From the IMG/VR virus record IMGVR_UViG_3300027762_000294, positions 1 to 64,000 of that record: a stretch of DNA of 64,000 bases; one strand, 5' to 3'. Made by a program: the position numbers and the translations under genes. This document shows, piece by piece, positions 1 to 29,789 of this stretch (position 1 is the first letter of the stretch; each line of letters starts with the position of its first letter). Below the pieces are notes generated by a model. That model was not told the origin of the DNA and did no database searches. It saw only the letters and a list, made by a program, of their open reading frames with translations. The stretch is from a virus.

Positions 1-333
1 TTATTGTCACCTTTAGAGAACGAGGCGTTCAACCAATATTTGTTACTTTTGCACTGAAAATAAAATTTTAATCAATTCTCATCGCTATTTTTTAATCAAT
101 TCCCATTGGGAACGGTAAAGATAGAGAATACGTCAAATTGAGTATTAGTTACTAATTGAAAAACGGCGTTTTGCATACATTAACTAATACCCAATTGAGC
201 GTATTCATTAATTTTTTACCGTTCCCAATGGGAATTGATTAAAAAATAGCGATGAGAATTGATTAAAATTTTATTTTCAGTGCAAAAGTAACAAATATTG
301 GTTGAACGCCTCGTTCTCTAAAGGTGACAATAA
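1..333. repeat. Terminal fold-back palindrome (putative hairpin genome end)
   Basis: 1-119 is the exact reverse complement of 215-333. The centre (120-214) pairs imperfectly: 126-132/200-206, 142-151/181-190, and 160-164/168-172 around a GGC apex. Confidence 0.9.
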
Positions 334-511
334 TCCGTTTTTCGGGGTCTTTGGGATTTTTACCTGTCATACCGTTCCCTTTTGGGAATGTAATCTGCTA
401 TTCCTATGGAAAAAAACCGGCGGGGATGCCAAAAAGGAATTCATTAAGATAACGTTTGACAAATTAATCCAAAAAAAGGAAAAAAATCTATAACTTTTTT
501 TCAAAAAAACC

Positions 512-540
512 TTGACTTCTTTCCACAACCGAGCTATAAT
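512..540 (+). promoter_or_regulatory. sigma70-type early promoter P1
   Basis: TTGACT-17 nt-TATAAT with an A/T-rich upstream tract; near-identical copies at 994 and 2492. Confidence 0.9.
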
Positions 541-574
541 TACATTATCAAAACTAAACAAAGGGCGGTTTAAC

Positions 575-931
575 ATGAAACAACAACACGATTTGGGCAC
601 ACAACTACTTCTCAGCCATATGTTACTCATCGAATTAAAAGCTATGAGCAACAATTCCACTGAATATGAGGGTTTGGGAGGTGTGACTGAGTTAGTGAAA
701 ATTATGACCAAGCAACCACTGCCGGAGGATTATGAGAAGTTTGTGAAGGTCCATGTAGAGCTACAGCAAATGGATTGCGCCATAGGGTTTTTACACCAGG
801 GCGATCCCTTTTTCTATGATCTGGATACCGGTTATCTAGTGATGATTATTGACAATGATGTGACTATGTCAATAACCTTCACACCTGAAGGCACCCAAGC
901 CGTTATGGAAGCCATGACCATCTCGTATTAA
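575..931 (+). CDS. Early hypothetical protein, paralogue family A
   Basis: ATG at 575, downstream of P1 (the track's TTG start at 512 is the -35 box). C-terminal FFYDLDTGYLVM motif is shared with the ORFs at 2553, 2917 and 5108. Confidence 0.8.
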   Translation: MKQQHDLGTQLLLSHMLLIELKAMSNNSTEYEGLGGVTELVKIMTKQPLPEDYEKFVKVHVELQQMDCAIGFLHQGDPFFYDLDTGYLVMIIDNDVTMSITFTPEGTQAVMEAMTISY

Positions 932-993
932 CCTTTAACTGTGCCCTGTAAGGGGCACAATCACTGACCCCTCCAAAAAAAAGAAAAAAAACC

Positions 994-1022
994 TTGACTT
1001 CTGTCCACAACCGAGCTATAAT
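994..1022 (+). promoter_or_regulatory. sigma70-type early promoter P2
   Basis: TTGACT-17 nt-TATAAT; same spacer and leader family as P1. Confidence 0.9.
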
Positions 1023-1055
1023 TACATCATCAAAACTAAACAAAGGAAAAGTTGT

Positions 1056-1802
1056 ATGGCAATTAAGGTGTTTGAAATCTCACAACGGCGATTAAAAATC
1101 GCACTAGATCAGTATACGAAGGGAAGTAAATTACTGATCCAAGTTACTAGCAAGAATGTGTCGTTAATGGTTGACAAATACGGGATTTGTTTTGAGTATA
1201 CCGTGCCCTCTTATTATGAAGGTGAAGGTTTTTGGTTAGCGGTCTCCCAAGATACTGTTAAGCGGTTAAAATCCGAAGTTGGTAAAAACAACAAACTTGT
1301 CAAATGTTATTATGACGCTCATCCTGCCAACTCGTTGAGTTTCGTATTGTATAACGCAACGGTTGGCGTAAAAGAAACATCGATCTCAAGTCAAGCCCCA
1401 TATGACACTGAGAGATTTGAACTGTCCACTCCCGGTGCCCCTGTTAAATTGGAGTATGGTTCTCTTTGTAAAGCAGTTGAAAATGTGAAGACAGAGAACG
1501 TAACTGAAAAAACCCCCACAGTGGTTTTGCGGCTTTATCCGGATAAAACAACCCTTGGCAGAATGATTGGTGCAGAAGAAGAGTATCTGATACATGGTGA
1601 TTGTGCTGGTGACAAGTATCCGGGCTTTGTTAGATTGGGTATGCCAAACGCCCCCATCTACTCTATCCATCTTGAGCTTTCTACCCTAACTACCATACTC
1701 AAGGCTATGCAACCACTATGTCTAGTGTTTGATAATAATGTGCGGTCTAACAAGATCATCATCAACGGTATCGAAGGTTGTACCTGGTACTTACGATATT
1801 AA
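1056..1802 (+). CDS. Early hypothetical protein (possible sliding-clamp-like fold)
   Basis: 248-aa ORF with AAGGA RBS, directly after P2. The hydrophobic pattern resembles clamp domains (weak). Confidence 0.7.
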   Translation: MAIKVFEISQRRLKIALDQYTKGSKLLIQVTSKNVSLMVDKYGICFEYTVPSYYEGEGFWLAVSQDTVKRLKSEVGKNNKLVKCYYDAHPANSLSFVLYNATVGVKETSISSQAPYDTERFELSTPGAPVKLEYGSLCKAVENVKTENVTEKTPTVVLRLYPDKTTLGRMIGAEEEYLIHGDCAGDKYPGFVRLGMPNAPIYSIHLELSTLTTILKAMQPLCLVFDNNVRSNKIIINGIEGCTWYLRY

Positions 1803-1857
1803 CATCACGCGCCCTGCAAGGGGCGCTTTATCAACCCAAAGAAAGAGGAATTGATGT

Positions 1858-2421
1858 ATGTCTAACACTTTATTTTATACACCCCATACCCTTGACGACA
1901 AAGGAAACCTTTTAGTCCACGCTGTGAAAACAGAATGTGGTTATGTAATTACGAAAAAGAATCCCGCAAACGACTACCCGGGTTATATAGAAGAGGTAGC
2001 TCTAGAATTGCCGTTGCCAGAACAAATACTAACCTCGTTTGATCTTGGGACTCTCAGACTGGGACTTTTAGATTTATGCGTAGTAACGCATTATCCCCGC
2101 TACATAGAGCGGGATCTTCTTACTCAATATCAGAACGAGGTTTTGAACTTTCTGATTCAACAGGTTCAAACCTTAGGTTTAGATTTTAGTGCTCACATGC
2201 CCTTGAGAGAGCTCCAATGTTTTCTATACCGGGTCCTTGTGAAATCGGATATGACAATTGACGAGTTTATTGATCACGTGTTGGGTTATATATCTCAATC
2301 GCAATTACGCATTTCTCTTTTGCCAACTAAAACGTCAGCCGAATCGACAGAAGTTGAAATGTCGCTTTTTGAATATAGACTCAAACTTATGCGAATCATA
2401 CACGCGGTGGTTAATGGTTAG
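1858..2421 (+). CDS. Early hypothetical protein, paralogue family B
   Basis: GAGG RBS; motifs LFYTPHT / PEQILT / YPRYI / MSLFEY shared with the ORFs at 3340 and 4494. Confidence 0.8.
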   Translation: MSNTLFYTPHTLDDKGNLLVHAVKTECGYVITKKNPANDYPGYIEEVALELPLPEQILTSFDLGTLRLGLLDLCVVTHYPRYIERDLLTQYQNEVLNFLIQQVQTLGLDFSAHMPLRELQCFLYRVLVKSDMTIDEFIDHVLGYISQSQLRISLLPTKTSAESTEVEMSLFEYRLKLMRIIHAVVNG

Positions 2422-2491
2422 TCCATAACAGGTGCGCCCTGAAAGGGGCGCTAGAAAGGAAAACACTCTACAACTTTTTTTTCAAAGACCC

Positions 2492-2520
2492 TTGACTTCT
2501 TTCCATAACCTGGCTATAAT
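2492..2520 (+). promoter_or_regulatory. sigma70-type early promoter P3
   Basis: TTGACT-17 nt-TATAAT followed by the same TACATTAT..AAACT.AACAAAGG leader. Confidence 0.9.
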
Positions 2521-2552
2521 TACATTATACAAACTGAACAAAGGAGTAATAA

Positions 2553-2864
2553 ATGAGCAACACGTATGAATTGGCTAGTAAAGCCATGAATGACTTGATC
2601 ACCATGACGTTGATCGACCCCGAAACTTTTGTTAAACATTTAGATGCCGCCGCTGATAATGCCGCTTCTGGCTTGGTGGATTGTGACTTCATATGGGGTT
2701 TAAAAAACGCGGTATTCTTTAAATACCAAGAATGCGTGTATGTACTTGATTTAGATCGTTGGATTTTGTATGCTGTTATTGATGACGGTTTTATCTTGAG
2801 TAAGGAGATCCCAGAAGAGGGAATAACGGGCGTTAATGACGAGTTAGAATTACAGTCCTATTAA
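2553..2864 (+). CDS. Early hypothetical protein, paralogue family A
   Basis: AAGGAG RBS; YVLDLDRWILYAVIDDG motif. Confidence 0.8.
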   Translation: MSNTYELASKAMNDLITMTLIDPETFVKHLDAAADNAASGLVDCDFIWGLKNAVFFKYQECVYVLDLDRWILYAVIDDGFILSKEIPEEGITGVNDELELQSY

Positions 2865-2916
2865 TCAACCGCGCCCTGCAAGGGGCGCTCAATCAATCCA
2901 AAGAAAGGAAAAAAAT

Positions 2917-3285
2917 ATGTTGTATACAGATCACTTGTTACCAGATAATAACCAAGGCTTGCTCAATATGGCGTTCTTTGCCGGGCTGTTGTTAGTAGAT
3001 CAGACGAACAGTGATGAGGGGCGTAATAGTTTTCTTAAAATGATGCATGTCCCCATTTACGGCGGTGGCTATAGTGAGGAAGAGGTAACCCATTGGTCAA
3101 ACCACTTGCATGATGAGTTCCCGTTGTTAGACCGCGGGAATTTCTTAATCACAACAACCGTGAAGTTCCCAACGTTTTACGAACTGGATTCTGGGACGTT
3201 GTTTATGGTTGTCATGCCCGGCGTCATGCTAACATTCTTAATCGACCCTGAACCAGCCAAGTTAATTCGTGATAGCCTCAAATAA
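2917..3285 (+). CDS. Early hypothetical protein, paralogue family A
   Basis: AAGGA RBS; TFYELDSGTLFM motif. Confidence 0.8.
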   Translation: MLYTDHLLPDNNQGLLNMAFFAGLLLVDQTNSDEGRNSFLKMMHVPIYGGGYSEEEVTHWSNHLHDEFPLLDRGNFLITTTVKFPTFYELDSGTLFMVVMPGVMLTFLIDPEPAKLIRDSLK

Positions 3286-3339
3286 TCAACCGCGCCCTGC
3301 AAGGGGCGCTCAATCAATCCAAAGAAAGGAGATAAATGT

Positions 3340-4008
3340 ATGAGCGACAATCGTTATTGGTATAGACCCAACACTATATATGATAATGAAGGAGAAACTT
3401 ACCGGTTGTTATTCAGTGAATTTCATTCAGGTGATTATTATACCACTACAATGTTGAACAAAAACGGTATTACTGGCAAATTTAGCGATCATTCGTTTAC
3501 AACAGTACCCTTTGAAAACATCTTGTACCCTGAACATGTATTGACCCCGTATGAGCTTAGTGCCTTAGCAACTGATGATGATTTATGGCTTTCCCCTTAC
3601 CCAGGATACCTACAACCGAGAGATGTTAATCCTGAATATATGTACTTACTGTTTGACCTTACAAGAATACTTTCTGACTCAACAATAGAATTGCCTATCA
3701 ATGATGTTGACCGTCTGTTGAAGTTTTTACAAACCACTTCCCCGTTTCGTGATAACTTAGGGGTGCATAATTTTGTTATAGAATTGTTGTTTAACCAACT
3801 ACGCAACACTAAGATTGAAAGTTATCGTACTGACTTCCCATCTAATGTATGGGCAACGACGAACACTGGTAGTATGTCACTGTTTGATTACATCTTAGTT
3901 TTGATGAATGCCTTACGCCCACGGCTTTATGGGTTATCAACAATTAGCGAACGCCCCAAAGAACGCCATATTGAGCCTTTAAACAAACAGCGTGATTTCA
4001 AACGTTAA
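3340..4008 (+). CDS. Early hypothetical protein, paralogue family B
   Basis: AAGGAG RBS; YWYRPNT / PEHVLT / YPGYL / MSLFDY. Confidence 0.8.
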   Translation: MSDNRYWYRPNTIYDNEGETYRLLFSEFHSGDYYTTTMLNKNGITGKFSDHSFTTVPFENILYPEHVLTPYELSALATDDDLWLSPYPGYLQPRDVNPEYMYLLFDLTRILSDSTIELPINDVDRLLKFLQTTSPFRDNLGVHNFVIELLFNQLRNTKIESYRTDFPSNVWATTNTGSMSLFDYILVLMNALRPRLYGLSTISERPKERHIEPLNKQRDFKR

Positions 4009-4050
4009 TCAACCGCGCCCTGAAAGGGGCGCAAAGAAAGGAGAGAATAA

Positions 4051-4413
4051 ATGTCATTACCTGAAGTAAATCCTATTATGGTATATGGACTTCGTACTTT
4101 ATTGCACAATTTTCCTAATTGTGTTTCAGGGGTGGATACATCAACACCTGATTATTTTGAAAAAGCCTTGTCTGTAATTGATGAAAACAACAAACAGTTT
4201 GTTAATGGGAGTTGGTATATTTCGATAGGAGGTATTTTAGACCTTATTTATAAATTGGGTCATAGTGGTCTCGTAGATTTTTTAAAAGACAAAGGTATCC
4301 ACCCGTATGGCAACCCACGGTTTAAGATGGAGTTGGTCTTTAATACATTAACATTAACTGCGCCCTGCAATCCAATAAAGAGAGGGAATATGATTGAAGA
4401 AGACCGTAAATGA
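4051..4413 (+). CDS. Early hypothetical protein
   Basis: AAGGAG RBS; the 3' end reads through a collapsed hairpin/RBS unit. Confidence 0.7.
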   Translation: MSLPEVNPIMVYGLRTLLHNFPNCVSGVDTSTPDYFEKALSVIDENNKQFVNGSWYISIGGILDLIYKLGHSGLVDFLKDKGIHPYGNPRFKMELVFNTLTLTAPCNPIKRGNMIEEDRK

Positions 4414-4493
4414 AGTCTTTCTTAAAACAGAAAGAACGTTTGTTTACCCCGGGTCAAAATTTGAAAGACATGCAGAATTGGGAGGCAGAATAA

Positions 4494-5066
4494 ATGGCTC
4501 ATCTTTTATATAAACCGTACACGTTTTTTAAGGGTGTAAGACTTGTTGAGGCGGTTGGTAATATGGTGACTGCAATTCTAGGAACGGGATGCAAGGTCAA
4601 GTTTTATTGCCCAGTCATACCATGCTCGAATTCCTTCATGAATATTGGAGAGGTCATGGCATTACGTGATTTCACCCGTGATTTAGAGTCAGAGGTTTAT
4701 CCTGATTATATGTGTTATTTTCCATTAGCACATAAGTACCATTTTTTAGAGGTCGGTATAAAAAGAATCATGAGTGATCCCCTGCAGTATCCTATAGAAT
4801 TAAGTGAGTTACTGTGTTTTGAGGACATACTGTTCAGACTTATTTATGATGGGGGTGATACTCCTGATGAATTGGCTGGGCGGATTCTCAGTGAACTCGA
4901 GGGTAACATCATAATGGATTATCTTACTGATGATTTTGTGCCCATACCCATCAACACTTCTGTGTTCAACATGTTGTCGTCTATGATACAAGTCACATAC
5001 CCACGGGCAAACCCGCGGTATAAGAATCGTGCTCTAAATGGGGCATGGGACATAGGACAGAAGTAA
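4494..5066 (+). CDS. Early hypothetical protein, paralogue family B
   Basis: GGAGG RBS; LLYKPYT / YPDYM / TSVFNM. Confidence 0.75.
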   Translation: MAHLLYKPYTFFKGVRLVEAVGNMVTAILGTGCKVKFYCPVIPCSNSFMNIGEVMALRDFTRDLESEVYPDYMCYFPLAHKYHFLEVGIKRIMSDPLQYPIELSELLCFEDILFRLIYDGGDTPDELAGRILSELEGNIIMDYLTDDFVPIPINTSVFNMLSSMIQVTYPRANPRYKNRALNGAWDIGQK

Positions 5067-5107
5067 AATCAACCGCGCCCTGAAAGGGGCGCTTTATTAA
5101 TTCAAGA

Positions 5108-5458
5108 ATGAGGAAAGAAGTTATGTGCTTATCTGTTGCAAAAGAATTACGGTTGTTGATGGTCACTAAGTTTACATTACATGAAGCGGCTGGCATTATC
5201 CTAAACAATCGAGTTGAGTATGACGAGTCTTACTCGTGGCTCTTGACTGAATGCTCGCCCCGTAAGAACTGCATTCTGTTTGGGTATAAAACTTGCCTAT
5301 TCAAATTTGATCTGATGGATGGCTGCTTGATTTTTGAAGGGGATGAACCCGGGTCCACTATGCAGTTATATCTGGACTCAGACCCTCAGATACACCAGCA
5401 GTATCTAGATAGATTTATCCCTTATTTAACCTGGCTTCCTTGGCTACGCGATCTATAA
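5108..5458 (+). CDS. Early hypothetical protein, probable family A
   Basis: LFKFDLMDGCLIF motif; last gene before the terminator. Confidence 0.7.
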   Translation: MRKEVMCLSVAKELRLLMVTKFTLHEAAGIILNNRVEYDESYSWLLTECSPRKNCILFGYKTCLFKFDLMDGCLIFEGDEPGSTMQLYLDSDPQIHQQYLDRFIPYLTWLPWLRDL

Positions 5459-5485
5459 CGCTGTAAAGTAAAGTAACCTAACCAC

Positions 5486-5517
5486 AACCCGGCAAGTGTT
5501 TACGCCGGGTTTTTTTT
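5486..5517 (+). terminator. Rho-independent terminator closing the early array
   Basis: AACCCGGC-loop-GCCGGGTT with a T run. Confidence 0.85.
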
Positions 5518-5587
5518 GCCTGGCTATATGGCATGGGGTATATACGATCGTTCAACCTTGGGGCTCCTAGGGCAATCCAAAGGGAAG

Positions 5588-6215
5588 GAAAGGATCTTCT
5601 TTACCGGGCTAAGTTCAATTACATCTTGTAAGTGTATACTTGTGTTTAGAATTTACCGCCATATAGAGTATACATACAAGTTTATTATGAAAATTATTCC
5701 TATCAATCAAGGGCTTACGTGATTTCAGATCACTTAGACTAAATTTTCCTATTATCTCTCTTCTTCAAATTTAAAACTTCTTAAGTTATTGATTATTCAC
5801 ACTTATCTCTCTCAATCTTTTTCGACACTTTGACAGTTTCTTATGACGTATTAAATACCATCCCCTACCCTATACTACGTTAAAGCAATTCAAGGAAATG
5901 AAAGGATCTTCTTTACCGGGCTAAGTTCAATTACATCTTGTAAGTGTATACTTGTGTTTAGAATTTACCGCCATATAGAGTATACATACAAGTTTATTAT
6001 GAAAATTATTCCTATCAATCAAGGGCTTACGTGATTTCAGATCACTTAGACTAAATTTTCCTATTATCTCTCTTCTTCAAATTTAAAACTTCTTAAGTTA
6101 TTGATTATTCACACTTATCTCTCTCAATCTTTTTCGACACTTTGACAGTTTCTTATGACGTATTAAATACCATCCCCTACCCTATACTACGTTAAAGCAA
6201 TTCAAGGAAATGAAA
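5588..6215. repeat. Perfect 312-bp tandem duplication (non-coding)
   Basis: 5588-5899 is repeated at 5900-6211, with GAAA microhomology at the junctions. Confidence 0.9.
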
Positions 6216-6649
6216 TAAGATGTTACTACCCTTAAATATATATATATTTTAAATCTTAAACTTTTTTAAAAAATATAATATAAGTGATCTTAAACTATGT
6301 AAGCTATTAATATATAAGAAGAATTTTTATAATAAATGGGTATTATACGTCGTATGAAAGATACTTCAATGTAGTAAAATATGGCGGGGTTTGACGTGTT
6401 TCAAAGTAAACTTCCAATGTACCTTAAACTGCGCCGTTGACGCGATCTTAAGTTTTCCTAAATAAACAAGCCACTTTCCTCTATAACTTGAATACCCACA
6501 CTAATAATAAATGTTAATCTTTTTTGACCCTTTGGAAGTGGGGTTATTGCTGGCGATATATTGGGGTTTTGGTTACGTTTTTCCCCTGTTTGTGAAGATT
6601 CATCTTCCAATGTCTAAAAAAGTCTGTATCGTTATAAATCAATAACTTA
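5705..6649. promoter_or_regulatory. Cluster of IHF-consensus sites (WATCAANNNNTTR)
   Basis: Exact matches at 5705-5717(+), 5782-5794(-), 6017-6029(+), 6094-6106(-) and 6637-6649(+); one-mismatch site at 6300-6312(-). Confidence 0.6.
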
Positions 6650-6713
6650 AGCGCGGTCAAAAGTGATACTTTGATTGATGTTTTAGTTACGTTTTTCCCT
6701 GTTTGTGAAGATT
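6572..6713. repeat. 28/29-bp direct repeat GTTACGTTTTTCCC(C)TGTTTGTGAAGATT x2
   Basis: Copies at 6572-6600 and 6686-6713, flanking the IHF-like site at 6637. Confidence 0.85.
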
Positions 6714-6993
6714 ATCTTTGGCTGCGCTTCTGCCCTAATCAACCTTTCTTCTTTTATTGGATTGATTTTGCCCTACAACGTCCTAATCGCCCCACCCTTA
6801 AACGATTACATCCCTAGGCATAATGATCCGGCTTAACTGAGATCTCTTTACCACGGGGCTATTACACCCCTTCTTTATGATTTGAGGGGGCGTGGGCATT
6901 TTTAGAATTTTTTTGATACAGGACTAAGGCAGGCGTATTCACGCATTTGAAGGAGGGGGGGGGTGTAGTATCGTTCCCATCGCTCGTTTGGAG

Positions 6994-7078
6994 GGTAAGT
7001 CGCCCTCATTCCAATTCCCACTACGTAGTAGGAGGTTAACATTACGATAGTGGTAAGTCGCCCTCATTCCAATTCCCA
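6994..7078. repeat. 27-bp direct repeat GGTAAGTCGCCCTCATTCCAATTCCCA x2
   Basis: Copies at 6994-7020 and 7052-7078, 31 nt apart. Confidence 0.85.
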
Positions 7079-7235
7079 TTCCATAATGAAATTGCCCTAC
7101 GAAAGTACCGTTGGTCGGACCTTTGGCTACACTCAGGGGAATACCGCTGGTATTCTAAAGGGGAGTGGTTTATACTATTATTAATGAGGGGAAGAAAACA
7201 TAAACTAACATTTACTTAAACAGGAGACATAAAGC

Positions 7236-12626: not shown

Positions 12627-13292
12627 ATGAGAATTAAATTACCCGAAACCGTGTTTTCACTTTTGAACTATGTGACGGCGTTGAGAATTAACAACGAGAC
12701 TAAGCAATTAATCAACACTCATCGGTGGGGATTACAGGATTACTTCTATTTTAAGAGAATAGGACCGTTGATACCAGCACCTGTGAGTCTCAGTTTAACT
12801 ATCCATATGCCAAACGATCGTTATAAAAGTGTCAACCCGTTTATTTTTTCAAAAACTTTGATTGACGTTTTGCAAGGTCGTCTTTACCGAAACGATAAAG
12901 ATGTTTTTCACTTAGAAGTTCACATAGATGACACAACTGAGAACGAACTATATGTTGACATTGAGGGAAGTCCTTTCGTTCCTAAGAGTCATCGTTTGGA
13001 TGGGTTAGATGTATTGCCGTTGTCACACACAGTAAATAAGTTGTATAAAGTGTCTGGAGGAGAACACCCTCATATTTATCGAGATCGGACGGTGTCTTAT
13101 GGGAAAATTGATCTCCCGTTTTCAGACACAATTTATTTTTTATTCCCTGATACAGCTCGCCCAGATATAGATAGCGTTCCTTATGTTTTTTGTGGGGACT
13201 GGAAAAACTATAACTTGCGTCATGTCTATGCTACTAAAGATTCTCAAGTTCCTCAGCATACGTTTTGTTATGGACTGAATAACCCATGTTGA
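12627..13292 (+). CDS. RusA-like Holliday junction resolvase (apparently two RusA-like halves)
   Basis: KTLIDVLQGRLYRNDKDV resembles RusA K..LDAL.G..DD..V; the second half has PLSHTVNKLYK and FPDTARPDIDS. Confidence 0.55.
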   Translation: MRIKLPETVFSLLNYVTALRINNETKQLINTHRWGLQDYFYFKRIGPLIPAPVSLSLTIHMPNDRYKSVNPFIFSKTLIDVLQGRLYRNDKDVFHLEVHIDDTTENELYVDIEGSPFVPKSHRLDGLDVLPLSHTVNKLYKVSGGEHPHIYRDRTVSYGKIDLPFSDTIYFLFPDTARPDIDSVPYVFCGDWKNYNLRHVYATKDSQVPQHTFCYGLNNPC

Positions 13293-14763: not shown

Positions 14764-14765
14764 AT

Positions 14766-20416: not shown

Positions 20417-23400
20417 ATGAACTTTGAGATTAAAGTAAAAGGGGTGGGATCAAAGATAATCATTGATTCTACCAACCCAAAATGGAACCTCCTTAGTAGT
20501 CCCAAGTATACCCACCCAGCATACACATATAGACTTTTTAAGGCAAACGGGGAAAGCACATGCGATTTGTCGGTATTATTAACCTCTAATGACAAACTCT
20601 TGTTATACCGTTATTCTAAAGGCTTTGAAAGCAGTGTGTATGAAGGTGTTCATCCGGGTTTATATGCCGAGGTAGAAGCCAGAGTAGGATCTGTGCCCAC
20701 TATTAAGGTTGGGGAAACAATTTCAAAACCCGTAGGGGAGCCCTCCCATAACCATCAACTATTACATTGCCCAAACTCGATCCCTGAATCGGTGGTAGCG
20801 GATTTTAAGAAAAGAGGGGTTCCCTTAAGGTTGTTGGTTGAACTAGGGTATTATCTGATTGAGAAACGGCTTTATACACCTGCCTATATTATCGAAACGG
20901 GGGAGCTTTGTCCTTTTGTTTGTAGAGATCCTGGAAACGATAAACATCACAAACGTACTTTAAAAGGGAGTAAATTTGCGTCCTTTGCCTGGATAAAGTC
21001 TTCTGTTGAGGAGTGCGAAACCTTAATCGTTTGTGAGGGAATAATGACGGCTCTAGCAATTGCTAATTATTTTCCCAACCAACATGTAGTTTCAGTAGGA
21101 GCCCATAACAATTACCCTAACCTTATTAACGATACCGCTTTAAGTAGATATTTTCCTGAGGTAACCACGGTAGTCATAGTTCCCGATGTGGATTCTAATC
21201 ATCATTCAACGGATAGTATTTCTAAACTCACTATAAATTCAGAAAAAGTGAGACTGGCTATTTTTCCTATGAACCCGTCGACTTTGAAAGGGGATTTTGG
21301 TGATTTGAAAAGTAAGACTGCCCAGAGGGTTGCAGCTGCCTTGTTTGAGTTTATTGCCTTTGCATCAGGGAAAACTTTAGCAAACCGTCTTTACTATGAA
21401 CGTAAAGTCACACCTTGCACTTTGAATAACAACCCCGGGGATTTACCCATGATTCAAGGGAGCAAAACCACTTCGTTTTTAGAGCCCATGGGGTTTTTAA
21501 ATAATTTTTTAAGGTTAGGTCCCAAGTCATTCTATTGCGTTCCTCATCAATTAGTAGTGAGCTTAGAGCAACTAACTTCTTTAATTGAATCACCAGCAAC
21601 AATGATTCCTTATACCAGTGCATTAACCGATCTTATGGGAAACGAGCCTAAGGGTAGTGCCGTGTATAAAGAAGCACAAGCAGTTCTAGATAAAATCAAA
21701 AGATGGTCTACTGACACACTAATAAGTAACATACCTAATCATCCATTGCTTAGACTGGATATGTACGGTTTTGCATTTAAGAATGGGTACTTTATGCATG
21801 ATGGTAGCAATCATTGGTTTGTTACAGATAACAAAACACGTCCAGCTGCCGTGAATTTACGATACCCACCCATTCACTTAGAGTACGTTCCTGAAGCTAT
21901 CGACGACATAGCTAAACAAGAAGTTGAGTTTGTTTTGGGTCACTGTATGTGTGGAGGGAGTCGTAAGTCAAAAGAATCTGTGGCGCGTATGTTGAGGTCA
22001 TTGTTTTTTGGCAATGAAGACCATATAGCAACCCATGCAAGATCTATATATGTTGTTGAAGGCACGGGCGGGATTGGTAAATCGCAGCTAGGGTTATTAA
22101 TAAAATCAATGGACCCTTATGCGGGTGACATTAACCCCATGAGTGTGGCTTCTAAAAACAAGTCTCAATTTCATTTCACACATGAGGATGCGTTAAAATC
22201 AATAAAGATTTTAGATGATGCACCTCCTATATTTGGGGATGTTAGCTTTCTCAAAACCAGTGCTACCGGTGGTGAAATGCGAACAGAAGGCAAATTCCAG
22301 AATCCGGTATATGTAGAAACATGTGCCTCAATGGTATTTGTTTATAATGAAACTCCTAAATTTGACAATGACACTGGATTAGAGCGTCGGTTGAGATATG
22401 TAACATTAGAGGGAAAACGTAACAATTCGATTAAAGTAGATACTTTGGGAACGCTGTCTAAACACTTACCAGCCGTTTTCAACTGGATTTGCGAAAACAT
22501 CAACACCGTGGTGTCTGATGAGGATTTTTATCGCAGCACCAAAACAGAAGTTCCCGCTGATGTTATGGCGTTTGCAGAAGCCGTATTTACACCGTCATTT
22601 AATTCCAATCCGGCACTATCAACTTCTGAACTCATGTTTTTCAAACGAGTTTTCATTCAGGACGAGAACGAATGTAAAAAATTAAAGCCTAAGGAAAGGA
22701 CAACACTTTGGCAAAATACCAATCGCAAACAAGAACCTCAATATTCTCTATTCGACGGCTATAAGCGAACCTTAGGGTTGAAGAATAATATATCGCACAG
22801 TCAATTTGAAGATAAATTACGAATTGCTCTGTCGTATAGACAAGTACAACAACAGTTTTTGGGAGTTGAACCCACGCAGTCCCTGTATAATTACAGGGAA
22901 TTGTTTTTCACTGTAAACTCCAAAACTCAATATGTGCGAATGAGATTAGAGCAAATTCATGAAAACCCAGATGACCAGGATCCTGTAACACCACCTCCTG
23001 AAAAACAGAATAAGGATATCGTTCCTATAAATCAAGTGAGTCCCGTCCCACAAAAACCTGTTATTGATGGGTATTTCCAGGGAGAGGACAGTTTCTTAGA
23101 TATAGTTTGGCACCTTCAGAATTTTAAAGAGTGGGAGAGATCTGAAGATTTACTTTGGATTGTGTATAATCCAAACAAGGACAAAGAATTTGAAGGATTT
23201 TTAAAGACTAACTATCACGGGGATGAATTAACCAACTTACTTCGGTTGTTGAGAATGTATAGAGAGCCTCTTGTTGCTGTAAAATCAAACAACTTCCTCT
23301 CACCTGAATTACATACTGCTGTGTTGGATGACTTTGAATTCGCAACCCTCACGGATATGTTTCCTGAAAAATTATCTGAATTGAGTGATTTGAAAGATAA

Positions 23401-24589
23401 GGTCTTAAAAGCCAATCTCTTGTATGACCGCTGTTATGCACACTCGGATGTTAGTATTTTGAGTTTAGCCAATGACGCTGATAAAGCCGCAGCCCGGGAA
23501 TTATCGAATTACATAACACCCCCACATAAGAGAGCAAAGTTTATCCCTTTCTTGGATAGCCTTAAGTTAGATGTGTCCCCCACTTTTGAGGAGTTGCCAA
23601 CTGATGATGAGCATATGACGGTTTTGAAATTATATGCCCCATATGTGCCCAACACGGAAGAATATCTAATATCCCAAGGTCGTAAAGTTGATAATTTGGC
23701 ACGCCAACGGATCGACGATGTTGAGGGGGTAGTTTGTTTAAAGCCAACCGGAGAATCTCGTATTAACTTTGATGAAGTTCCTACACGGGTCACAAAGGGA
23801 CTTACCGGAGTTGCGCCGAATAGAGCAATTCATGGGATAATTGAGGATTGTATTCTCCCTCAACCTAAAGATATTACATTGATGTATCTTAGTGGTGAAT
23901 ACCCAACTGATAAAAATGCATATCCTGAAATTCCAGGTAATTGCCCTAATCCTTCTTCAACTCTATACATGCGCGGACCTCGCCCTATTGGAGATATTTG
24001 TGAAGCTGTTGGAGATGAATATCAACCCGAAAAAAGTGACCGGTTTTTTGATCCTATAAAGGAGCACGTTCCTTATATGAAAGCCGCTTATTTAGAAGCT
24101 AAGACTGTAACCAATACTATTGAAAATCCAGGTAAGTCGGCGATTGCTAAAATGGCAATTAGTGAGACAGCTTGTTATCACGGGTTAAGTTGGATGCATC
24201 ATAACGACCGACTTCGTGAGTTCATGATTTCATTGGCTGCCCCCTTCATCACTGCTCGTGAGGCATATAATCGTGGTGAATATGATCACCCGTTTCTTGT
24301 GGATTATGTGTATCCTTATGGTGAATTAACTGACAGTTTAGCCGAAGGGTTATTACAAAAGGAAGGGGAAGAATCTGTAGGGCAACTTATGGATATTTTG
24401 ACTGGATTTAACCAAGCCCAAGCCATGGCAAATAAGTTAGAATCAGAACCCCAGCGGTTTGAAAAAGTGGTAAGCGATCTTAAAGCTAAGGATTATTTTT
24501 GGAAACGTGCCAATTTCATATCTGGAAAAGGTAGACGCTTCAGAATCATCAACCATGTTAAGTATCTCGAAGGAGAACAAAATAAATGA
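20417..24589 (+). CDS. Primase-helicase (TOPRIM + D5-like SF3 helicase) with a long C-terminal extension
   Basis: LIVCEG.MTA, VPDVD and GDFGD (TOPRIM); AFKNG, Walker A GTGGIGKS, Walker B ILDD, EGKF, YNE.P and LERR (SF3). Confidence 0.85.
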   Translation: MNFEIKVKGVGSKIIIDSTNPKWNLLSSPKYTHPAYTYRLFKANGESTCDLSVLLTSNDKLLLYRYSKGFESSVYEGVHPGLYAEVEARVGSVPTIKVGETISKPVGEPSHNHQLLHCPNSIPESVVADFKKRGVPLRLLVELGYYLIEKRLYTPAYIIETGELCPFVCRDPGNDKHHKRTLKGSKFASFAWIKSSVEECETLIVCEGIMTALAIANYFPNQHVVSVGAHNNYPNLINDTALSRYFPEVTTVVIVPDVDSNHHSTDSISKLTINSEKVRLAIFPMNPSTLKGDFGDLKSKTAQRVAAALFEFIAFASGKTLANRLYYERKVTPCTLNNNPGDLPMIQGSKTTSFLEPMGFLNNFLRLGPKSFYCVPHQLVVSLEQLTSLIESPATMIPYTSALTDLMGNEPKGSAVYKEAQAVLDKIKRWSTDTLISNIPNHPLLRLDMYGFAFKNGYFMHDGSNHWFVTDNKTRPAAVNLRYPPIHLEYVPEAIDDIAKQEVEFVLGHCMCGGSRKSKESVARMLRSLFFGNEDHIATHARSIYVVEGTGGIGKSQLGLLIKSMDPYAGDINPMSVASKNKSQFHFTHEDALKSIKILDDAPPIFGDVSFLKTSATGGEMRTEGKFQNPVYVETCASMVFVYNETPKFDNDTGLERRLRYVTLEGKRNNSIKVDTLGTLSKHLPAVFNWICENINTVVSDEDFYRSTKTEVPADVMAFAEAVFTPSFNSNPALSTSELMFFKRVFIQDENECKKLKPKERTTLWQNTNRKQEPQYSLFDGYKRTLGLKNNISHSQFEDKLRIALSYRQVQQQFLGVEPTQSLYNYRELFFTVNSKTQYVRMRLEQIHENPDDQDPVTPPPEKQNKDIVPINQVSPVPQKPVIDGYFQGEDSFLDIVWHLQNFKEWERSEDLLWIVYNPNKDKEFEGFLKTNYHGDELTNLLRLLRMYREPLVAVKSNNFLSPELHTAVLDDFEFATLTDMFPEKLSELSDLKDKVLKANLLYDRCYAHSDVSILSLANDADKAAARELSNYITPPHKRAKFIPFLDSLKLDVSPTFEELPTDDEHMTVLKLYAPYVPNTEEYLISQGRKVDNLARQRIDDVEGVVCLKPTGESRINFDEVPTRVTKGLTGVAPNRAIHGIIEDCILPQPKDITLMYLSGEYPTDKNAYPEIPGNCPNPSSTLYMRGPRPIGDICEAVGDEYQPEKSDRFFDPIKEHVPYMKAAYLEAKTVTNTIENPGKSAIAKMAISETACYHGLSWMHHNDRLREFMISLAAPFITAREAYNRGEYDHPFLVDYVYPYGELTDSLAEGLLQKEGEESVGQLMDILTGFNQAQAMANKLESEPQRFEKVVSDLKAKDYFWKRANFISGKGRRFRIINHVKYLEGEQNK

Positions 24590-25071
24590 GCTTATTCCCA
24601 GAATTCGGTTTGACTGTTCAGACCGTTGAACCCACAACTAAAAGTTCATCTGAAGATGACGGGAAGCCCACTAAATCGGGGAAGAACAAAGATTTGTTTG
24701 ACGGGGGATTTTCAAACATGAACCTAATTCAAGAAGAAGAGAATACAGGGGACTTTCCACTATATACTTACGATCCTGATAAACAATTCAAACACCCTTG
24801 TAATTGTGTGGAGATAACGTTTGAGAATCAGGTGTTTAATTGGGCATCTCCTAGTAATAAAAAGGTAGGGGTTGATTTTTCTAAAGGTGCTACACGCACA
24901 ATACGGTTAACCCTGCCCAGCGAGGTCCCTATTGTTATACCTGAATCTGAGGATATTCGTGAAGTATTAGATCATGGGGTGCCTGATCTTTACCTTAGCA
25001 AACCCACTCTTGTATCTAAGGGTAAAGAATCACGTCGTAACATCCGGGGAGATTTAAGTAATTATGAGTAG
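24586..25071 (+). CDS. Hypothetical protein
   Basis: 161-aa ORF, AAGGAG RBS, overlapping both neighbours. Confidence 0.7.
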   Translation: MSLFPEFGLTVQTVEPTTKSSSEDDGKPTKSGKNKDLFDGGFSNMNLIQEEENTGDFPLYTYDPDKQFKHPCNCVEITFENQVFNWASPSNKKVGVDFSKGATRTIRLTLPSEVPIVIPESEDIREVLDHGVPDLYLSKPTLVSKGKESRRNIRGDLSNYE

Positions 25072-26824
25072 AGTAGTGTTATATGACATTGAGGTGTTTC
25101 CTAACGCCGCGTTTATGGTATTTTGTATTGACGGGGTGTATTATTACCGAGACTTACTTAAACTGACTCACGACGATCATTTTTTCAAATATGCAATGTG
25201 TCCAATGACAACATATTTAGGGTATAACTCGTTTCATTATGATAACATTGTGATCAACCGAGTTGTTGGAAAAGGTTTAACTTACTCACAGATCAAGGAA
25301 TTGAGTGACTCCATTATTAAGGGTAATTTTAAGGATGAGAATTACCTGTTATTAGGAGGTGAGAAATTCACCAATGTAGCTGACTTTGCAGCGGTTATGA
25401 GATTACAACAAGTTTTTGGAAAAAAACGGTATCCTATCGGATTAAAAACAGTAGCGGAACTTGAACTCGGTCTCATTTATGACAGTCCTTTGAGTTTCAA
25501 CTCTTTAATTGAAACAGAGAGCCATAAAAGAGCTGCAATCACATATTGCTACACGGATGTTAAAGTGATGTATGAGATATTAGCAGGTAAAGGGGATTTG
25601 TTAGCACAAAATCTGTTTTGGTTTATGAAAACCAAAGGCGAAAATGCGTGGCTAAAACATAATGCTGGAATTACAAATAACCTATTTAGAAATGAATTGA
25701 AAAAGCCCAATTCATTAAGAGCTAATCCTAATGAAAATCTCCTGATTCCTTTGCCAGGTGTAAATTCAGTATTGGGCAAGGCAATATTGAACAATGGGTT
25801 GAAAAAGGATATTGAATTACCGGTACCATATGGGGTTTTAATGTTTGGGGTGGGCGGGGTTCATTTAAATTATACACAACCCATTTGTTTTAACGGGCGA
25901 ATTTTAGTAGCGGATATCAAAAGTTTTTACCCGTCTATGTTAGTACACCTCAGAAGCATGCCTGGGGGCTTGACTGCATTTGTGAAAATTTTAGGGGAGA
26001 TGCTTGATCATAAACGAAGCGCCGAGATGAGCATTCCCAAAAAATCAACAGAATTTCAAAAGTTGGTTGTGAATTCTGCGTACGGTTTGTTGTTAGATAA
26101 GAACTCGGTAATTTTTTCTGTAGGTACCGCTAACAATATGATTTTTTGTTGTTTCTTATTAGTTGCGGAGGTGTTTTCAGATTTGACAGACGCGGGTTAC
26201 CCTCCTATTTATGTAAATACGGACGGCTTTTTCATTCCTAGTCGGGGGGTTCGTGATGACGTTTATATTAAACAAGTTATTAAAAGCACTTGTGAACGAT
26301 TAACAGGGAAGGACGCAATTCAATGGAGTTACAAAACCTACAAAGGAGGTTACATAAAGGACACGTCTAATTACATTTTGAACACTCAAGAAGAACATTG
26401 GGCATTTGTTGCTAAAGGGTGTTTTGAAGGACCTAGTGTTTACCGATTGAATGGCAAGTGGCTTAACTTGTTAGCTGTAAATAATTTTCCCGGGGAGGTT
26501 ACCGGGGAAAAACTGAAGGCGTTTTTTCTAGGGAATCCAAAAGAGCGATATAAATACTTTGTGCGTCAAGCAAATGCTGACTGGTTTGGCAATGGTAATG
26601 AATCAAAAACGTATATCTTTACTAAGAGTACCGATTTAGTAACATCTATTAGGAGAACACAAAAGGGGATCCAGAGAATTACTAATTGGGTTTTGCAAGG
26701 TGCCGTTCCTTTAGGAAAAATTGATTTTACAGGGTATGCCGACTTGCCTATCGACTTCGATCGTTATGCAAAGGAAGTTAATGATTTAGTTGATAGAGAA
26801 AATTTAATATACCTTGATTGGTGA
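25064..26824 (+). CDS. Family B DNA polymerase with 3'-5' exonuclease
   Basis: Exo motifs YDIEVF, GYNSFHYD, YCYTDV; polymerase motifs DIKSFYPS, KLVVNSAYG, NTDG. Confidence 0.92.
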   Translation: MSRVVLYDIEVFPNAAFMVFCIDGVYYYRDLLKLTHDDHFFKYAMCPMTTYLGYNSFHYDNIVINRVVGKGLTYSQIKELSDSIIKGNFKDENYLLLGGEKFTNVADFAAVMRLQQVFGKKRYPIGLKTVAELELGLIYDSPLSFNSLIETESHKRAAITYCYTDVKVMYEILAGKGDLLAQNLFWFMKTKGENAWLKHNAGITNNLFRNELKKPNSLRANPNENLLIPLPGVNSVLGKAILNNGLKKDIELPVPYGVLMFGVGGVHLNYTQPICFNGRILVADIKSFYPSMLVHLRSMPGGLTAFVKILGEMLDHKRSAEMSIPKKSTEFQKLVVNSAYGLLLDKNSVIFSVGTANNMIFCCFLLVAEVFSDLTDAGYPPIYVNTDGFFIPSRGVRDDVYIKQVIKSTCERLTGKDAIQWSYKTYKGGYIKDTSNYILNTQEEHWAFVAKGCFEGPSVYRLNGKWLNLLAVNNFPGEVTGEKLKAFFLGNPKERYKYFVRQANADWFGNGNESKTYIFTKSTDLVTSIRRTQKGIQRITNWVLQGAVPLGKIDFTGYADLPIDFDRYAKEVNDLVDRENLIYLDW

Positions 26825-29097: not shown

Positions 29098-29789
29098 CAA
29101 CCCTAACATTTACCCCAGTTTTTCTTCACAAGTTGTTGCATCAACATCGGTACAGTGCTAAAGAGAATGGTGTGTTGTTCAAATTGGAGGACCATGTATT
29201 GCAAGTAGTGTCTACCAATAACCGACTTTTGACAGTTACAAAACTCACCATGCCTGAAATTGACACTACGTTAAACGCAACCATTCATAACCGTGGAGTG
29301 ATGTTTATCAAAGGGTATCTGCGTAAGCTAAAAGGCTTGGTTTCCTTATCGTTTTCTGAGAGTTATGTCGATTTGAAGCAAGGCGAATCTCAAATCGACA
29401 GAAATTATTTGGTCGGGGAAACATATCCCGATTATACAGCGGTAATTCAAAAGGAGGTAGGATACCAGATTTGGGTTAGATATTCCTCTTTCAAGGATGC
29501 CGTTCAAAGTCAAGAAAATGAGCTGATTTTGAAAGAGTACCAACACCGTCTTTTGATCAATCAACATTCAATGTCCATTTACGACAGTCGATATGCTGAG
29601 GGTAATGCTGTTAAATTGTCAACGGCACCAATCCCCCTAGACACCGATTTATTAATGGGGGCTGTACTTTCCCTAAATGCTTTGCCCAACAAACATTTGA
29701 TTTTGTCCTTTTATGAGGATAGTATAAACGTAGGGCTTGAATTAGAAGGACGCCCTGAAACTAAGGTTATAATAGCCGCCAACCATTAA
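29088..29789 (+). CDS. DNA polymerase beta-clamp-like protein
   Basis: NGVLF......LQVVSTNNRLL and GETYPDYTAVI correspond to the DnaN VATDGHRL and G.FPDY..VI motifs. Confidence 0.7.
   Translation: MQMTTLTFTPVFLHKLLHQHRYSAKENGVLFKLEDHVLQVVSTNNRLLTVTKLTMPEIDTTLNATIHNRGVMFIKGYLRKLKGLVSLSFSESYVDLKQGESQIDRNYLVGETYPDYTAVIQKEVGYQIWVRYSSFKDAVQSQENELILKEYQHRLLINQHSMSIYDSRYAEGNAVKLSTAPIPLDTDLLMGAVLSLNALPNKHLILSFYEDSINVGLELEGRPETKVIIAANH

What the first reader, a model, noticed from the sequence alone, without database searches (positions are those of the whole stretch)
1..333. Poxvirus-style, incompletely base-paired hairpin end on a tailed-phage genome
Seen: the sequence folds back on itself about position 167. 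The 119-bp arms are perfect, and the AT-rich 95-nt centre still pairs in register (126-132/200-206, 142-151/181-190, 160-164/168-172) but with mismatches, bulges and a 3-nt apex. Known: this is the architecture of poxvirus/ASFV covalently closed termini, which occur as flip/flop isomers and are made by Holliday-junction-resolvase cleavage of concatemer junctions. Protelomerase ends (N15) are instead perfectly paired. Inference: the contig read around a closed end. The phage also encodes a D5-like SF3 primase-helicase, PolB and a RusA-like resolvase, so it may use a hairpin-telomere replication/resolution system while still encoding TerL. I know of no such described combination, and no protelomerase is visible in this window.
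Basis: partly seen in the sequence, partly recalled or inferred. Interest (0 to 1): 0.85.

Follow-up and report, generated by a model that had tools for sequence, protein, structure and literature searches.

The report
Fold-back junction at phage genome ends
Both ends of this 75-kb tailed-phage contig run round a real 95-base imperfect palindrome, which may be a poxvirus-like hairpin chromosome end never shown in a tailed phage, but assembled contigs cannot yet tell that from one giant internal inverted repeat.

Summary
Positions 1-119 and 215-333 are exact reverse complements around a 95-nt, 70% A+T centre (120-214). The centre is itself a significant imperfect palindrome: 35 matches, 9 mismatches, 6 gap positions, fold z = -5.9.

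Position 1 is a true contig end. The 75,468-bp record has 7,167-bp ITRs, so the same fold-back sits at both ends.

The 119-nt arms are an assembler limit, not biology. A k=31 assembly of the probable source run gives a 30+95+30 unitig and an unbranched 215-564 unitig. So only the genome itself flanks the centre on either side.

No protelomerase, tyrosine recombinase or A22-type resolvase is detectable. There is a P4/D5-type primase-helicase, a small PolB, a clamp-like protein, a weakly supported RusA-like ORF, and a TerL with intact nuclease residues.

The assembly graph is equally produced by two structures: a linear genome with hairpin ends or head-to-head junctions (my best guess, about 0.45), or a circular-map genome with one 7-kb inverted repeat and a 95-nt spacer (about 0.33). 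The centre's depth suggests most molecules carried it as duplex junction DNA.

Long reads or virion end chemistry are needed. No relatives could be retrieved. This scan has noted similar phage ends on other DNA before.

The parts
1..119 (.). Read-through arm A': exact reverse complement of 215-333. Its length is set by the assembler's k, so it is not a separate genomic segment.
   Evidence: In Logan's k=31 contigs the same arm is 30 nt (unitig 90-244).
120..214 (.). Fold-back centre: 95 nt, 70.5% A+T, imperfect palindrome with a 3-nt apex (165-167) on a perfect 5-bp stem (160-164/168-172). Candidate hairpin-telomere loop, or end-to-end junction, or spacer.
   Evidence: Present as one unitig with both flanks in the probable source run, depth 14.6.
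215..333 (.). Arm A: the genome's own outermost duplex sequence next to the centre.
   Evidence: The unbranched unitig 215-564 shows that only the genome continues from it.
218..234 (.). Box 1: ACCGTTCCC followed by the 6+1+6 palindrome TTCCCA-A-TGGGAA, starting 4 nt from the centre. Candidate binding site for a dimeric protein.
   Evidence: The motif occurs only next to the centre, at both genome ends.
228..268 (+). Two 17-nt iteron-like direct repeats, ATG(G/A)GAATTGATTAAAA, spaced 24 nt apart.
   Evidence: D6. One search shows the core GAATTGATTAAAA is found nowhere else in the 75 kb.
371..388 (.). Box 2: ACCGTTCCC and the palindrome variant TTCCC-TTTT-GGGAA, 153 nt inward of box 1.
   Evidence: (D4, I6).
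512..540 (+). First of at least three near-identical sigma70-type early promoters (TTGACT, 17 nt, TATAAT) pointing inward. The first early gene probably starts at ATG 575.
   Evidence: D1 copies at 475-564, 957-1046 and 2455-2544.
1..7167 (.). Inverted terminal repeat as written in the contig (true repeat unit 215-7167, 6,953 bp). It holds about 11 ORFan early genes and then a roughly 1.7-kb non-coding block. It ends in intergenic DNA 68 nt before the first unique gene.
12627..13292 (+). Candidate diverged RusA-like Holliday-junction resolvase (N-terminal ~150 aa). Weak support only.
   Evidence: PF05866 at 13.2 bits, E = 0.006, below cut-off. Atlas top hits are all RusA families, scores 0.86-0.87, 176-182 shared features, TM 0.49. 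No Pfam, PHROG, NCBIfam or PDB hit. The AF2 model was unusable.
20417..24589 (+). Primase-helicase, 1,390 aa: Toprim domain plus P4/D5-type SF3 helicase domain.
   Evidence: TIGR01613 1e-8; DUF5906; Toprim_3; PHROG DNA primases.
25064..26824 (+). Small family-B DNA polymerase with intact exonuclease and polymerase motifs, from an isolated lineage.
26874..28208 (+). Large terminase with Walker A/B motifs and three invariant C-terminal aspartates (D274, D333, D435), so the nuclease is probably active.
29088..29789 (+). Sliding-clamp-like protein (partial DnaN similarity).
   Evidence: TIGR00663, 1.5e-7.

Best explanation
The 95-nt centre is the phage's telomere. The genome is a linear dsDNA of about 75 kb with 7-kb inverted terminal repeats. 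At each tip the two strands are continuous through an A+T-rich, incompletely base-paired hairpin. During replication the same sequence appears unfolded, as the duplex centre of end-to-end (head-to-head and tail-to-tail) junctions.

Shown: both orientations of the centre adjoin the same arm; nothing else adjoins that arm; the centre is a significant in-register imperfect palindrome with a perfect apex stem-loop; unique palindromic boxes and iterons lie beside it; no protelomerase is present.

Inferred: the RNA-primed, clamp-assisted replisome (primase-helicase, PolB, clamp-like protein) copies round the hairpin and makes inverted-dimer junctions. These extrude as cruciforms and are cut by a junction resolvase (the RusA-like ORF, or the RuvC-fold nuclease of TerL during packaging), then sealed, which restores hairpins and homogenises the ITRs. 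The ITR places the same early genes and strong promoters at whichever end enters the cell first, with a non-coding block at its inner edge, much like the T5 first-step-transfer region.

The contig's 119-nt arms only show where the assembler met its own reverse complement.
For: The fold-back is present at both ends of a complete record. The centre is significant on its own. An independent k=31 assembly of the probable source run gives a 30+95+30 unitig plus an unbranched 215-564 unitig, so this is neither a finite 119-nt internal palindrome nor a by-product of one assembler. Depth does not rise towards the tip, which argues against an open terminal palindrome with short arms. The boxes and iterons occur only within about 390 nt of the centre. 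The genome lacks protelomerase, tyrosine recombinase and A22, and the centre is not a perfect palindrome, so this is not an N15-type end. A primase-helicase, PolB and clamp-like protein are present, and a RusA-like lead exists. From established knowledge, kb-scale gene-bearing ITRs accompany hairpin ends in Poxviridae, ASFV, chloroviruses and Rudiviridae. Also from established knowledge, long palindromes in bacteria are usually rescued by losing central symmetry, whereas here the apex keeps a perfect nucleating stem-loop.
Against: The same graph (unique 61 kb, repeat 6.95 kb at 2x, loop edge 95 nt) is produced by a circular-map genome with one internal inverted repeat, and the depth ratios are identical. 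The centre's depth of 14.6, against 37-46 in the ITR, is about 0.6-0.8 of what is expected if every end sat in duplex junction form. That is more than I would expect from virion hairpins in a size-selected short-read library, so most sequenced molecules were probably duplex junctions. TerL keeps its nuclease residues and clusters with ordinary pac/cos terminases at 27-30% identity, which suggests concatemer cutting. RusA support is below threshold. No related genome could be retrieved to test conservation. Hairpins are SbcCD targets in bacteria (PMC12624138), and no protective factor is identified.
Confidence: 0.45

Rival explanations
1. Internal giant inverted repeat (plastid-like LSC/IR/SSC layout). 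The phage has a circular map of about 75,135 bp (circular, concatemeric or permuted DNA). Two 6,953-bp inverted copies of the early region face each other across a 95-nt spacer. The short-read assembler could not cross this, so it wrote the repeat at both contig ends and stopped k bases past the spacer. A sub-variant: terminase cuts within the spacer (a cos-like site with twofold symmetry), giving linear virion DNA with ITRs but open ends and head-to-tail concatemers.
For: The graph topology and the centre:repeat depth ratio (0.32-0.39 observed against 0.5 expected) fit. The fairly high centre depth fits ordinary duplex DNA. TerL is a generic terminase with an intact nuclease. This scan's earlier follow-ups judged two other 'ITR' phage contigs to be breaks at internal inverted repeats (e1-3297043 and e1-3417602; unchecked here). 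The jumbo phage Matilda shows that long inverted repeats bracketing a segment do exist in phage genomes (bioRxiv 10.64898/2026.10.21.760668).
Against: A 14-kb quasi-palindrome whose spacer itself pairs in register and keeps a perfect apex stem-loop should be prone to hairpin and cruciform formation and to SbcCD cleavage (established knowledge). Selection normally removes central symmetry. A tandem inverted duplication of 7 kb of early genes has no evident benefit, and the T5-like layout (early genes, then a structured non-coding block) makes sense only at a physical end. No TerS or other end signal was recognised.
Confidence: 0.33
2. Open-ended terminal palindrome, or Matilda-type paired terminal repeats. 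The virion DNA really contains arm, centre and arm at each end, with finite arms. The arms could be anywhere from 119 nt to the whole 6.95-kb repeat, the latter giving a genome of about 89 kb. The ends are open and could breathe into rabbit-ear hairpins, as in parvoviruses.
For: The same local sequence would be assembled. There is a precedent for repeat-segment-repeat termini with both segment orientations in phage Matilda and Sarumanvirus.
Against: With arms of 1,500 nt or less, k-mer depth should double over the arm. Instead depth falls towards the centre: 46, then 37, then 14.6. Full-length arms would require terminase to ignore two identical internal repeat/unique boundaries. The 95-nt 'segment' carries no gene, unlike Matilda's 1.3-kb and 25-kb segments.
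Confidence: 0.07
3. In-vitro or assembly artefact at a real open end. The virion genome ends with the 95-nt imperfect palindrome. Its 3' end snapped back and was extended during amplification or end repair (for example MDA), creating fold-back molecules that the assembler then followed.
For: Terminal palindromes self-prime readily. The library type of the source run is not on record.
Against: The centre reaches roughly a third of ITR depth in what is recorded as a bulk freshwater-sediment metagenome, which is far above chimera rates of standard libraries. Even under this reading the centre is the true terminus and forms a hairpin, so the biology is close to the best explanation.
Confidence: 0.1
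4. Protein-primed linear genome (phi29/PRD1-like) with terminal proteins on ITR ends. The fold-back is incidental.
For: ITRs plus a small PolB with a weak PF03175 match (22 bits, below cut-off).
Against: Molecules or ends carrying both orientations of the centre next to the arm are abundant. If the contig was built at k = 119, reads span arm, centre and arm. The genome also encodes a primase-helicase and a clamp-like protein. The PolB's nearest homologues match classical DNA_pol_B more often (8) than DNA_pol_B_2 (5). No terminal-protein candidate was recognised.
Confidence: 0.03

Closest known systems
Poxvirus / ASFV / chlorovirus hairpin telomeres (vaccinia flip/flop loops, concatemer junctions resolved by the A22 resolvase)
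   Same: kb-scale gene-bearing ITRs. An A+T-rich terminal sequence that pairs incompletely, with mismatches and extrahelical bases. An unfolded duplex copy of the loop joining two inverted genome ends. A PolB plus D5-type primase-helicase replisome.
   Different: The host is a bacterium and the virion is a tailed HK97-fold capsid filled by a terminase whose nuclease looks intact. No A22/RuvC-type resolvase is present, only a weak RusA-like lead. Covalent closure and head-to-head polarity are not shown.
Rudiviridae (SIRV1/2): linear dsDNA, about 2-kb ITRs, covalently closed ends, Hjc-type resolvase
   Same: A prokaryotic virus with long ITRs and a proposed resolvase-dependent resolution of inverted concatemers.
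   Different: Rudiviruses are archaeal, rod-shaped, lack a terminase and use a Rep-type initiator. There is no sequence relationship.
N15 / PY54 / phiKO2 telomere phages (protelomerase TelN, telRL)
   Same: A tailed phage whose DNA can have hairpin ends in a bacterium.
   Different: Those hairpins exist only in the plasmid prophage, are made by a protelomerase at a perfect palindrome, and the virion DNA has cos ends. Here there is no protelomerase, an imperfect palindrome and 7-kb ITRs.
Collapsed inverted repeats in de Bruijn graph assemblies (plastid LSC/IR/SSC graphs; false 'ITR = complete' calls)
   Same: Identical graph shape, k-limited palindromic contig ends, and repeat identity true by construction.
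   Different: The 'small single-copy region' would be only 95 nt and is itself an in-register imperfect palindrome, flanked by unique binding-site-like motifs.
Burkholderia jumbo phage Matilda / Sarumanvirus paired terminal repeats (bioRxiv 10.64898/2026.10.21.760668)
   Same: A loop-on-a-stalk ('dumbbell') assembly graph at the genome ends, and terminal segments seen in both orientations between long inverted repeats.
   Different: Matilda's two ends differ from one another and bracket 1.3-kb and 25-kb gene-bearing segments. Here both ends are identical and the bracketed piece is a 95-nt non-coding quasi-palindrome.
Phage T5 terminal repeats (10-kb direct repeats with pre-early genes and an injection-stop region)
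   Same: A terminal repeat of about 9% of the genome, filled with early ORFan genes under strong promoters and followed by a structured non-coding block.
   Different: T5's repeats are direct, not inverted, and its ends are open.

Membership tests
Pox/ASFV/chlorovirus-type incompletely base-paired hairpin telomere | Linear dsDNA genome with kb-scale inverted terminal repeats | tested here: met
   The 7,167-bp ends are exact inverses. Caveat: the identity is true by construction in a graph assembly, and linearity is inferred.
Pox/ASFV/chlorovirus-type incompletely base-paired hairpin telomere | A+T-rich terminal sequence that folds on itself with mismatches and extrahelical bases | tested here: met
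   95 nt, 70.5% A+T, 35 matches / 9 mismatches / 6 gap positions, z = -5.9.
Pox/ASFV/chlorovirus-type incompletely base-paired hairpin telomere | Covalent continuity of the two strands at the tip (snap-back, exonuclease resistance) | not testable with these tools
   Needs virion DNA or raw and long reads. Only contigs were available.
Pox/ASFV/chlorovirus-type incompletely base-paired hairpin telomere | Flip and flop isomers of the loop | tested here: inconclusive
   Both orientations adjoin the arm (unitig 90-244). Between palindromic arms, however, flip and flop are the two strands of one duplex, so this is uninformative.
Pox/ASFV/chlorovirus-type incompletely base-paired hairpin telomere | Head-to-head / tail-to-tail concatemer junctions as replication intermediates | tested here: inconclusive
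   A duplex end-to-end junction is probably abundant (depth 14.6 against 37-46). Its polarity cannot be read across 7-kb repeats.
Pox/ASFV/chlorovirus-type incompletely base-paired hairpin telomere | Virus-encoded Holliday-junction resolvase | tested here: inconclusive
   Pox_A22 is absent. RusA scores 13.2 bits, below cut-off, with atlas leads. The structure model failed.
Protelomerase (N15-type) hairpin telomere | Protelomerase (ResT/TelK catalytic domain) or other tyrosine recombinase gene | tested here: not met
   PF16684 and PF00589 find nothing in six frames of the whole 75 kb.
Protelomerase (N15-type) hairpin telomere | Perfectly palindromic target site | tested here: not met
   The centre is 73% self-complementary with indels.
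Protein-primed ITR replicons (phi29, PRD1) | Protein-priming PolB (PF03175 with TPR insertions) and a terminal protein | tested here: inconclusive
   PF03175 scores 22 bits, below cut-off. Homologues are split between the two families. No terminal protein was recognised.
Protein-primed ITR replicons (phi29, PRD1) | Free, protein-capped ends with no end-to-end joins; no primase needed | tested here: not met
   The centre joins two inverted arms, and a primase-helicase and a clamp-like protein are present.
Internal inverted repeat of a circular-map genome (assembly-graph break) | Graph of unique region, 2x repeat and loop edge, with k-limited palindromic contig ends | tested here: met
   This feature is shared with the hairpin model and does not discriminate.
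Internal inverted repeat of a circular-map genome (assembly-graph break) | Single molecules linking unique end, repeat, spacer, repeat and unique start | not testable with these tools
   Needs reads longer than 14 kb.

The most novel reading that the evidence does not exclude
A terminase-packaging tailed phage whose mature genome ends are covalently closed, incompletely base-paired, poxvirus-style hairpins flanked by 7-kb ITRs. These ends would be made without a protelomerase, by junction resolution (a RusA-like enzyme and/or the TerL nuclease) of inverted concatemers. That would be a seventh end type for Caudoviricetes and a bacterial counterpart of pox/ASFV/rudivirus telomere biology.
Probability: 0.3. 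Interest if true: 0.9.

Novelty: new variant of a known kind. Interest (0 to 1): 0.6.

Why it matters
The recognised end types of tailed phages (cos, direct terminal repeats, headful, Mu-like, terminal protein) include no resolvase-made hairpin telomere. If this phage has one, the pox/ASFV/rudivirus replication strategy also exists in bacterial viruses. That would raise two questions: how a terminase handles closed ends, and how such ends escape SbcCD. It would also mean that 'ITR' genomes in viral catalogues hide a distinct class.

If instead it is a 7-kb inverted repeat around a 95-nt spacer, it is a warning. 'ITR = complete linear genome' calls (CheckV / IMG/VR) can then be graph artefacts, and the genome would be an unusually extreme quasi-palindrome tolerated in a bacterium.

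Either way, this case gives a practical rule. Palindromic contig ends whose arm length equals the assembler's k mark a turning point in the graph, not a measured structure.

Tried and rejected
Relatives:
- No relatives could be retrieved. Single-protein scans of IMG/VR with a terminal ITR gene, with PolB and with the 51%-identical TerL relative P0019 all came back empty.
- GenBank phages have no DNA match to the ITR.
- PolB and the RusA-like ORF have no homologues outside their own 90% clusters in the indexed search. The exhaustive HMMER search found only 27-30% identical PolBs plus one 116-aa fragment at 54%.
The other contigs of this phage (58,873, 44,237 and 23,308 bp) could therefore not be read.

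Reads:
- In runs X2, X3 and X6, from other studies, relatives cover parts of 218-1500 at low depth. No contig covers the centre, so nothing can be concluded from them.

Structure and sequence comparisons:
- The single-sequence AlphaFold model of the RusA-like ORF had pLDDT 32 and was not searched further.
- phmmer against PDB found nothing meaningful for PolB, TerL, the RusA-like ORF or ORF 28213-29097. The p85 hits for the last are coiled-coil noise.

Other:
- GC skew flips at about 29.5 kb, exactly where the coding strand flips, so it says nothing independent about replication.
- ORF 28213-29097 was rejected as a telomere enzyme. It is a DUF559/Vsr-like nuclease with a Bro-N/AntA-type N-terminus, a common homing-type phage gene.
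- The 'finite 119-nt internal palindrome' reading was rejected, because unitig 215-564 is unbranched.
- The ANME-1 Chaacviridae were rejected as a precedent. They are tailless 10-11 kb viruses.

Full report
THE OBSERVATION

The first 333 bases of the window are a fold-back. Arms 1-119 and 215-333 are 100% complementary, and 95 nt lie between them. The centre (120-214) is 70.5% A+T, against 61-62% for the genome as a whole. It is an imperfect palindrome in register with the arms. Its two halves align with 35 matches, 9 mismatches and 6 gap positions, a score reached by none of 2,000 shuffles. The whole 333 nt folds at -156 kcal/mol. The description is correct.

CONTEXT

The window is bases 1-64000 of a 75,468-bp IMG/VR virus record that is classed as ITR and 100% complete. 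The first 7,167 bases are the exact reverse complement of the last 7,167, so the identical fold-back closes the other end (75136-75468).

The genome is a tailed phage. It has an HK97/P22-type major head protein (phrog_283, 1e-34), an endolysin, a weak portal match, TerL and a 7,744-aa ORF in the tail module.

The plus-strand half carries:
- ribonucleotide reductase, a ThyA-like enzyme and a Dam methylase;
- a 1,390-aa Toprim plus P4/D5-type SF3 primase-helicase;
- a small PolB with intact exonuclease and polymerase motifs;
- TerL and a clamp-like protein.

The ITR holds about 11 ORFan genes behind at least three near-identical strong sigma70-type promoters that point inward. A roughly 1.7-kb non-coding block follows. 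The ITR ends in intergenic DNA, 68 nt before the first left-hand unique gene and 32 nt before the first right-hand one.

WHAT THE ARMS MEAN

I laid the contigs that Logan built with k=31 from four public runs onto 1-1500. In X1, the probable source sample (a freshwater sediment metagenome), the centre sits on a 155-nt unitig covering 90-244. That is 30 + 95 + 30 nt, which is k-1 bases on each side. The next unitig runs from 215 to 564 without a branch and stops only at the repeated promoter.

So arm length follows the assembler: 30 nt at k=31 and 119 nt in the IMG contig. The value 119 is presumably that assembly's k. This is my inference, since the assembler is not on record.

More importantly, no other sequence leaves the arm at 333/334. 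The centre is flanked on both sides by the genome itself for at least 350 nt and, by extension, for the whole repeat.

The perfect identity of the arms and of the two ITRs is true by construction, because one graph node is written twice. Flip and flop forms cannot be told apart in double-stranded short-read data either. The reverse complement of arm'-centre-arm is arm'-centre'-arm, so the two forms are the two strands of one molecule.

WHAT IT IS NOT

- It is not an N15-type telomere. No ResT/TelK domain and no tyrosine recombinase exist in any of the six frames of the 75 kb, and the site is not a perfect palindrome.
- It is not simply a protein-primed ITR genome. The centre physically joins inverted arms. 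The phage has a primase-helicase and a clamp-like protein. The nearest PolB homologues match classical DNA_pol_B (8 members) more often than the protein-primed family (5 members).
- It is not an open terminal palindrome with short arms. Depth would then double over the arm, but it falls instead: 46, then 37, then 14.6.
- It is unlikely to be a random chimera, because the centre reaches about a third of ITR depth.

THE UNRESOLVED CHOICE

The graph consists of a 61,134-bp unique region, a 6,953-bp repeat at double depth, and a 95-nt loop edge. Two structures produce it equally well:

(H) A linear genome whose ends are hairpins and/or inverted-concatemer junctions.
(L) A genome with a circular map of 75,135 bp that carries one internal inverted repeat around a 95-nt spacer. 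This includes a variant in which terminase cuts inside the spacer.

The expected depth ratios are the same for both, and the depth of the unique region was not measured.

In favour of H:
- The centre is an in-register quasi-palindrome with a perfect nucleating apex. That is the opposite of the central asymmetry that usually rescues long palindromes in bacteria.
- Palindromic boxes (ACCGTTCCC..GGGAA at 218-234 and 371-388) and two iterons (228-268) occur only beside the centre.
- kb-scale gene-bearing ITRs are the hallmark of hairpin-ended viruses.
- The layout of early genes followed by a structured non-coding block makes sense only at a physical end, as in the T5 first-step-transfer region.

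In favour of L:
- TerL is a generic terminase with Walker motifs and three invariant C-terminal aspartates. Its nearest isolates are ordinary pac/cos phages at 27-30% identity.
- The centre's depth is about 0.6-0.8 of the value expected if every end sat in duplex junction form. I would expect far less from closed hairpins in a size-selected library. Most sequenced molecules probably carried the centre as duplex DNA, either as replicating concatemers in infected cells (compatible with H) or as a permanent internal repeat (L).

A recent preprint on the jumbo phage Matilda shows a third layout that gives loop-on-a-stalk graphs, with each end consisting of repeat, segment and repeat. It fits this case poorly.

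RESOLVASE

It matches nothing in the Pfam, PHROG, NCBIfam or PDB searches. It has no homologues outside its own cluster. Its AlphaFold model was unusable.

The language-model atlas does put RusA families in all the top places (scores 0.86-0.87, 176-182 shared features), with a structural TM of 0.49 over residues 1-147. I treat it as a lead. RusA-type resolvases are common in phages whatever their end type.

COMPARATIVE EVIDENCE

None could be obtained. The lineage is isolated. Pattern and protein scans of IMG/VR and of JGI metagenome contigs returned nothing. Runs from other studies hold relatives of the ITR but do not cover the centre.

Literature searches found hairpin ends in phages only for protelomerase prophages. 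Earlier notes of this scan describe similar fold-back ends in other tailed-phage contigs, and also two 'ITR' contigs that turned out to be breaks at internal inverted repeats. I did not check those notes. They are leads in both directions.

VERDICT

My confidence in each reading:
- Telomere (a hairpin and its replicative junction): 0.45.
- Internal repeat: 0.33.
- Open or paired terminal palindrome: 0.07.
- In-vitro fold-back at a real open end: 0.10.
- Protein-primed ends: 0.03.

If hairpin ends are proven, this would be a new end type for tailed phages. The deciding experiments (read-pair geometry, native long reads, exonuclease and snap-back tests) are simple.

Noticed in passing
window 29910-53144 (-): A single uninterrupted 7,744-aa ORF (23.2 kb, nearly a third of the genome) lies in the tail module, downstream of tail genes. 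It is presumably a giant tape-measure-like protein. I did not analyse it here.
   Followed up: no
window 475-564, 957-1046, 2455-2544: There are three copies of a 90-nt early promoter plus leader cassette (TTGACT, 17 nt, TATAAT, then a conserved leader ending in AAAGG). This was the deepest and most variant-rich part of the ITR in other metagenomes, so it is conserved among relatives.
   Followed up: partly
window 941-959, 1809-1827, 2434-2452, 2871-2889: A G+C-rich hairpin (GCGCCCTG-NAA-GGGGCGC type, with a GNRA-like loop) recurs after the early genes, mostly without a T-run. The same hairpin appears in the loose ends of relatives' contigs in X2, X3 and X6.
   Followed up: no
window 28213-29097 (+): Immediately after TerL lies a 294-aa protein with a C-terminal DUF559/Vsr-like nuclease domain. 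The atlas neighbours carry Bro-N/AntA/Rha N-termini. It looks like a homing-type endonuclease inserted beside the terminase gene.
   Followed up: partly
window 13594-15593 (+): A 389-aa protein whose thymidylate-synthase-like domain covers only residues ~195-315 sits next to a Dam-type methylase. This may be a DNA base-modification module.
   Followed up: no
window 7167/7168 and genome 68301/68302: The ITR ends sharply in intergenic DNA just upstream of the ribosome-binding sites of the first unique gene on each side. The repeat therefore supplies the upstream region for both the replication-gene arm and the structural-gene arm.
   Followed up: yes
window 25064-26824 (+): The PolB has no relative above about 30% identity among 1.84 billion cluster representatives, apart from a 116-aa fragment at 54%. 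The phage lineage is very sparsely sampled, although it occurs in freshwater sediment, lake and subsurface metagenomes from several studies.
   Followed up: yes
window 26824-26874 and surroundings: No small-terminase candidate was recognised next to TerL, which directly follows PolB. Packaging initiation may be unusual, or TerS may lie elsewhere.
   Followed up: no
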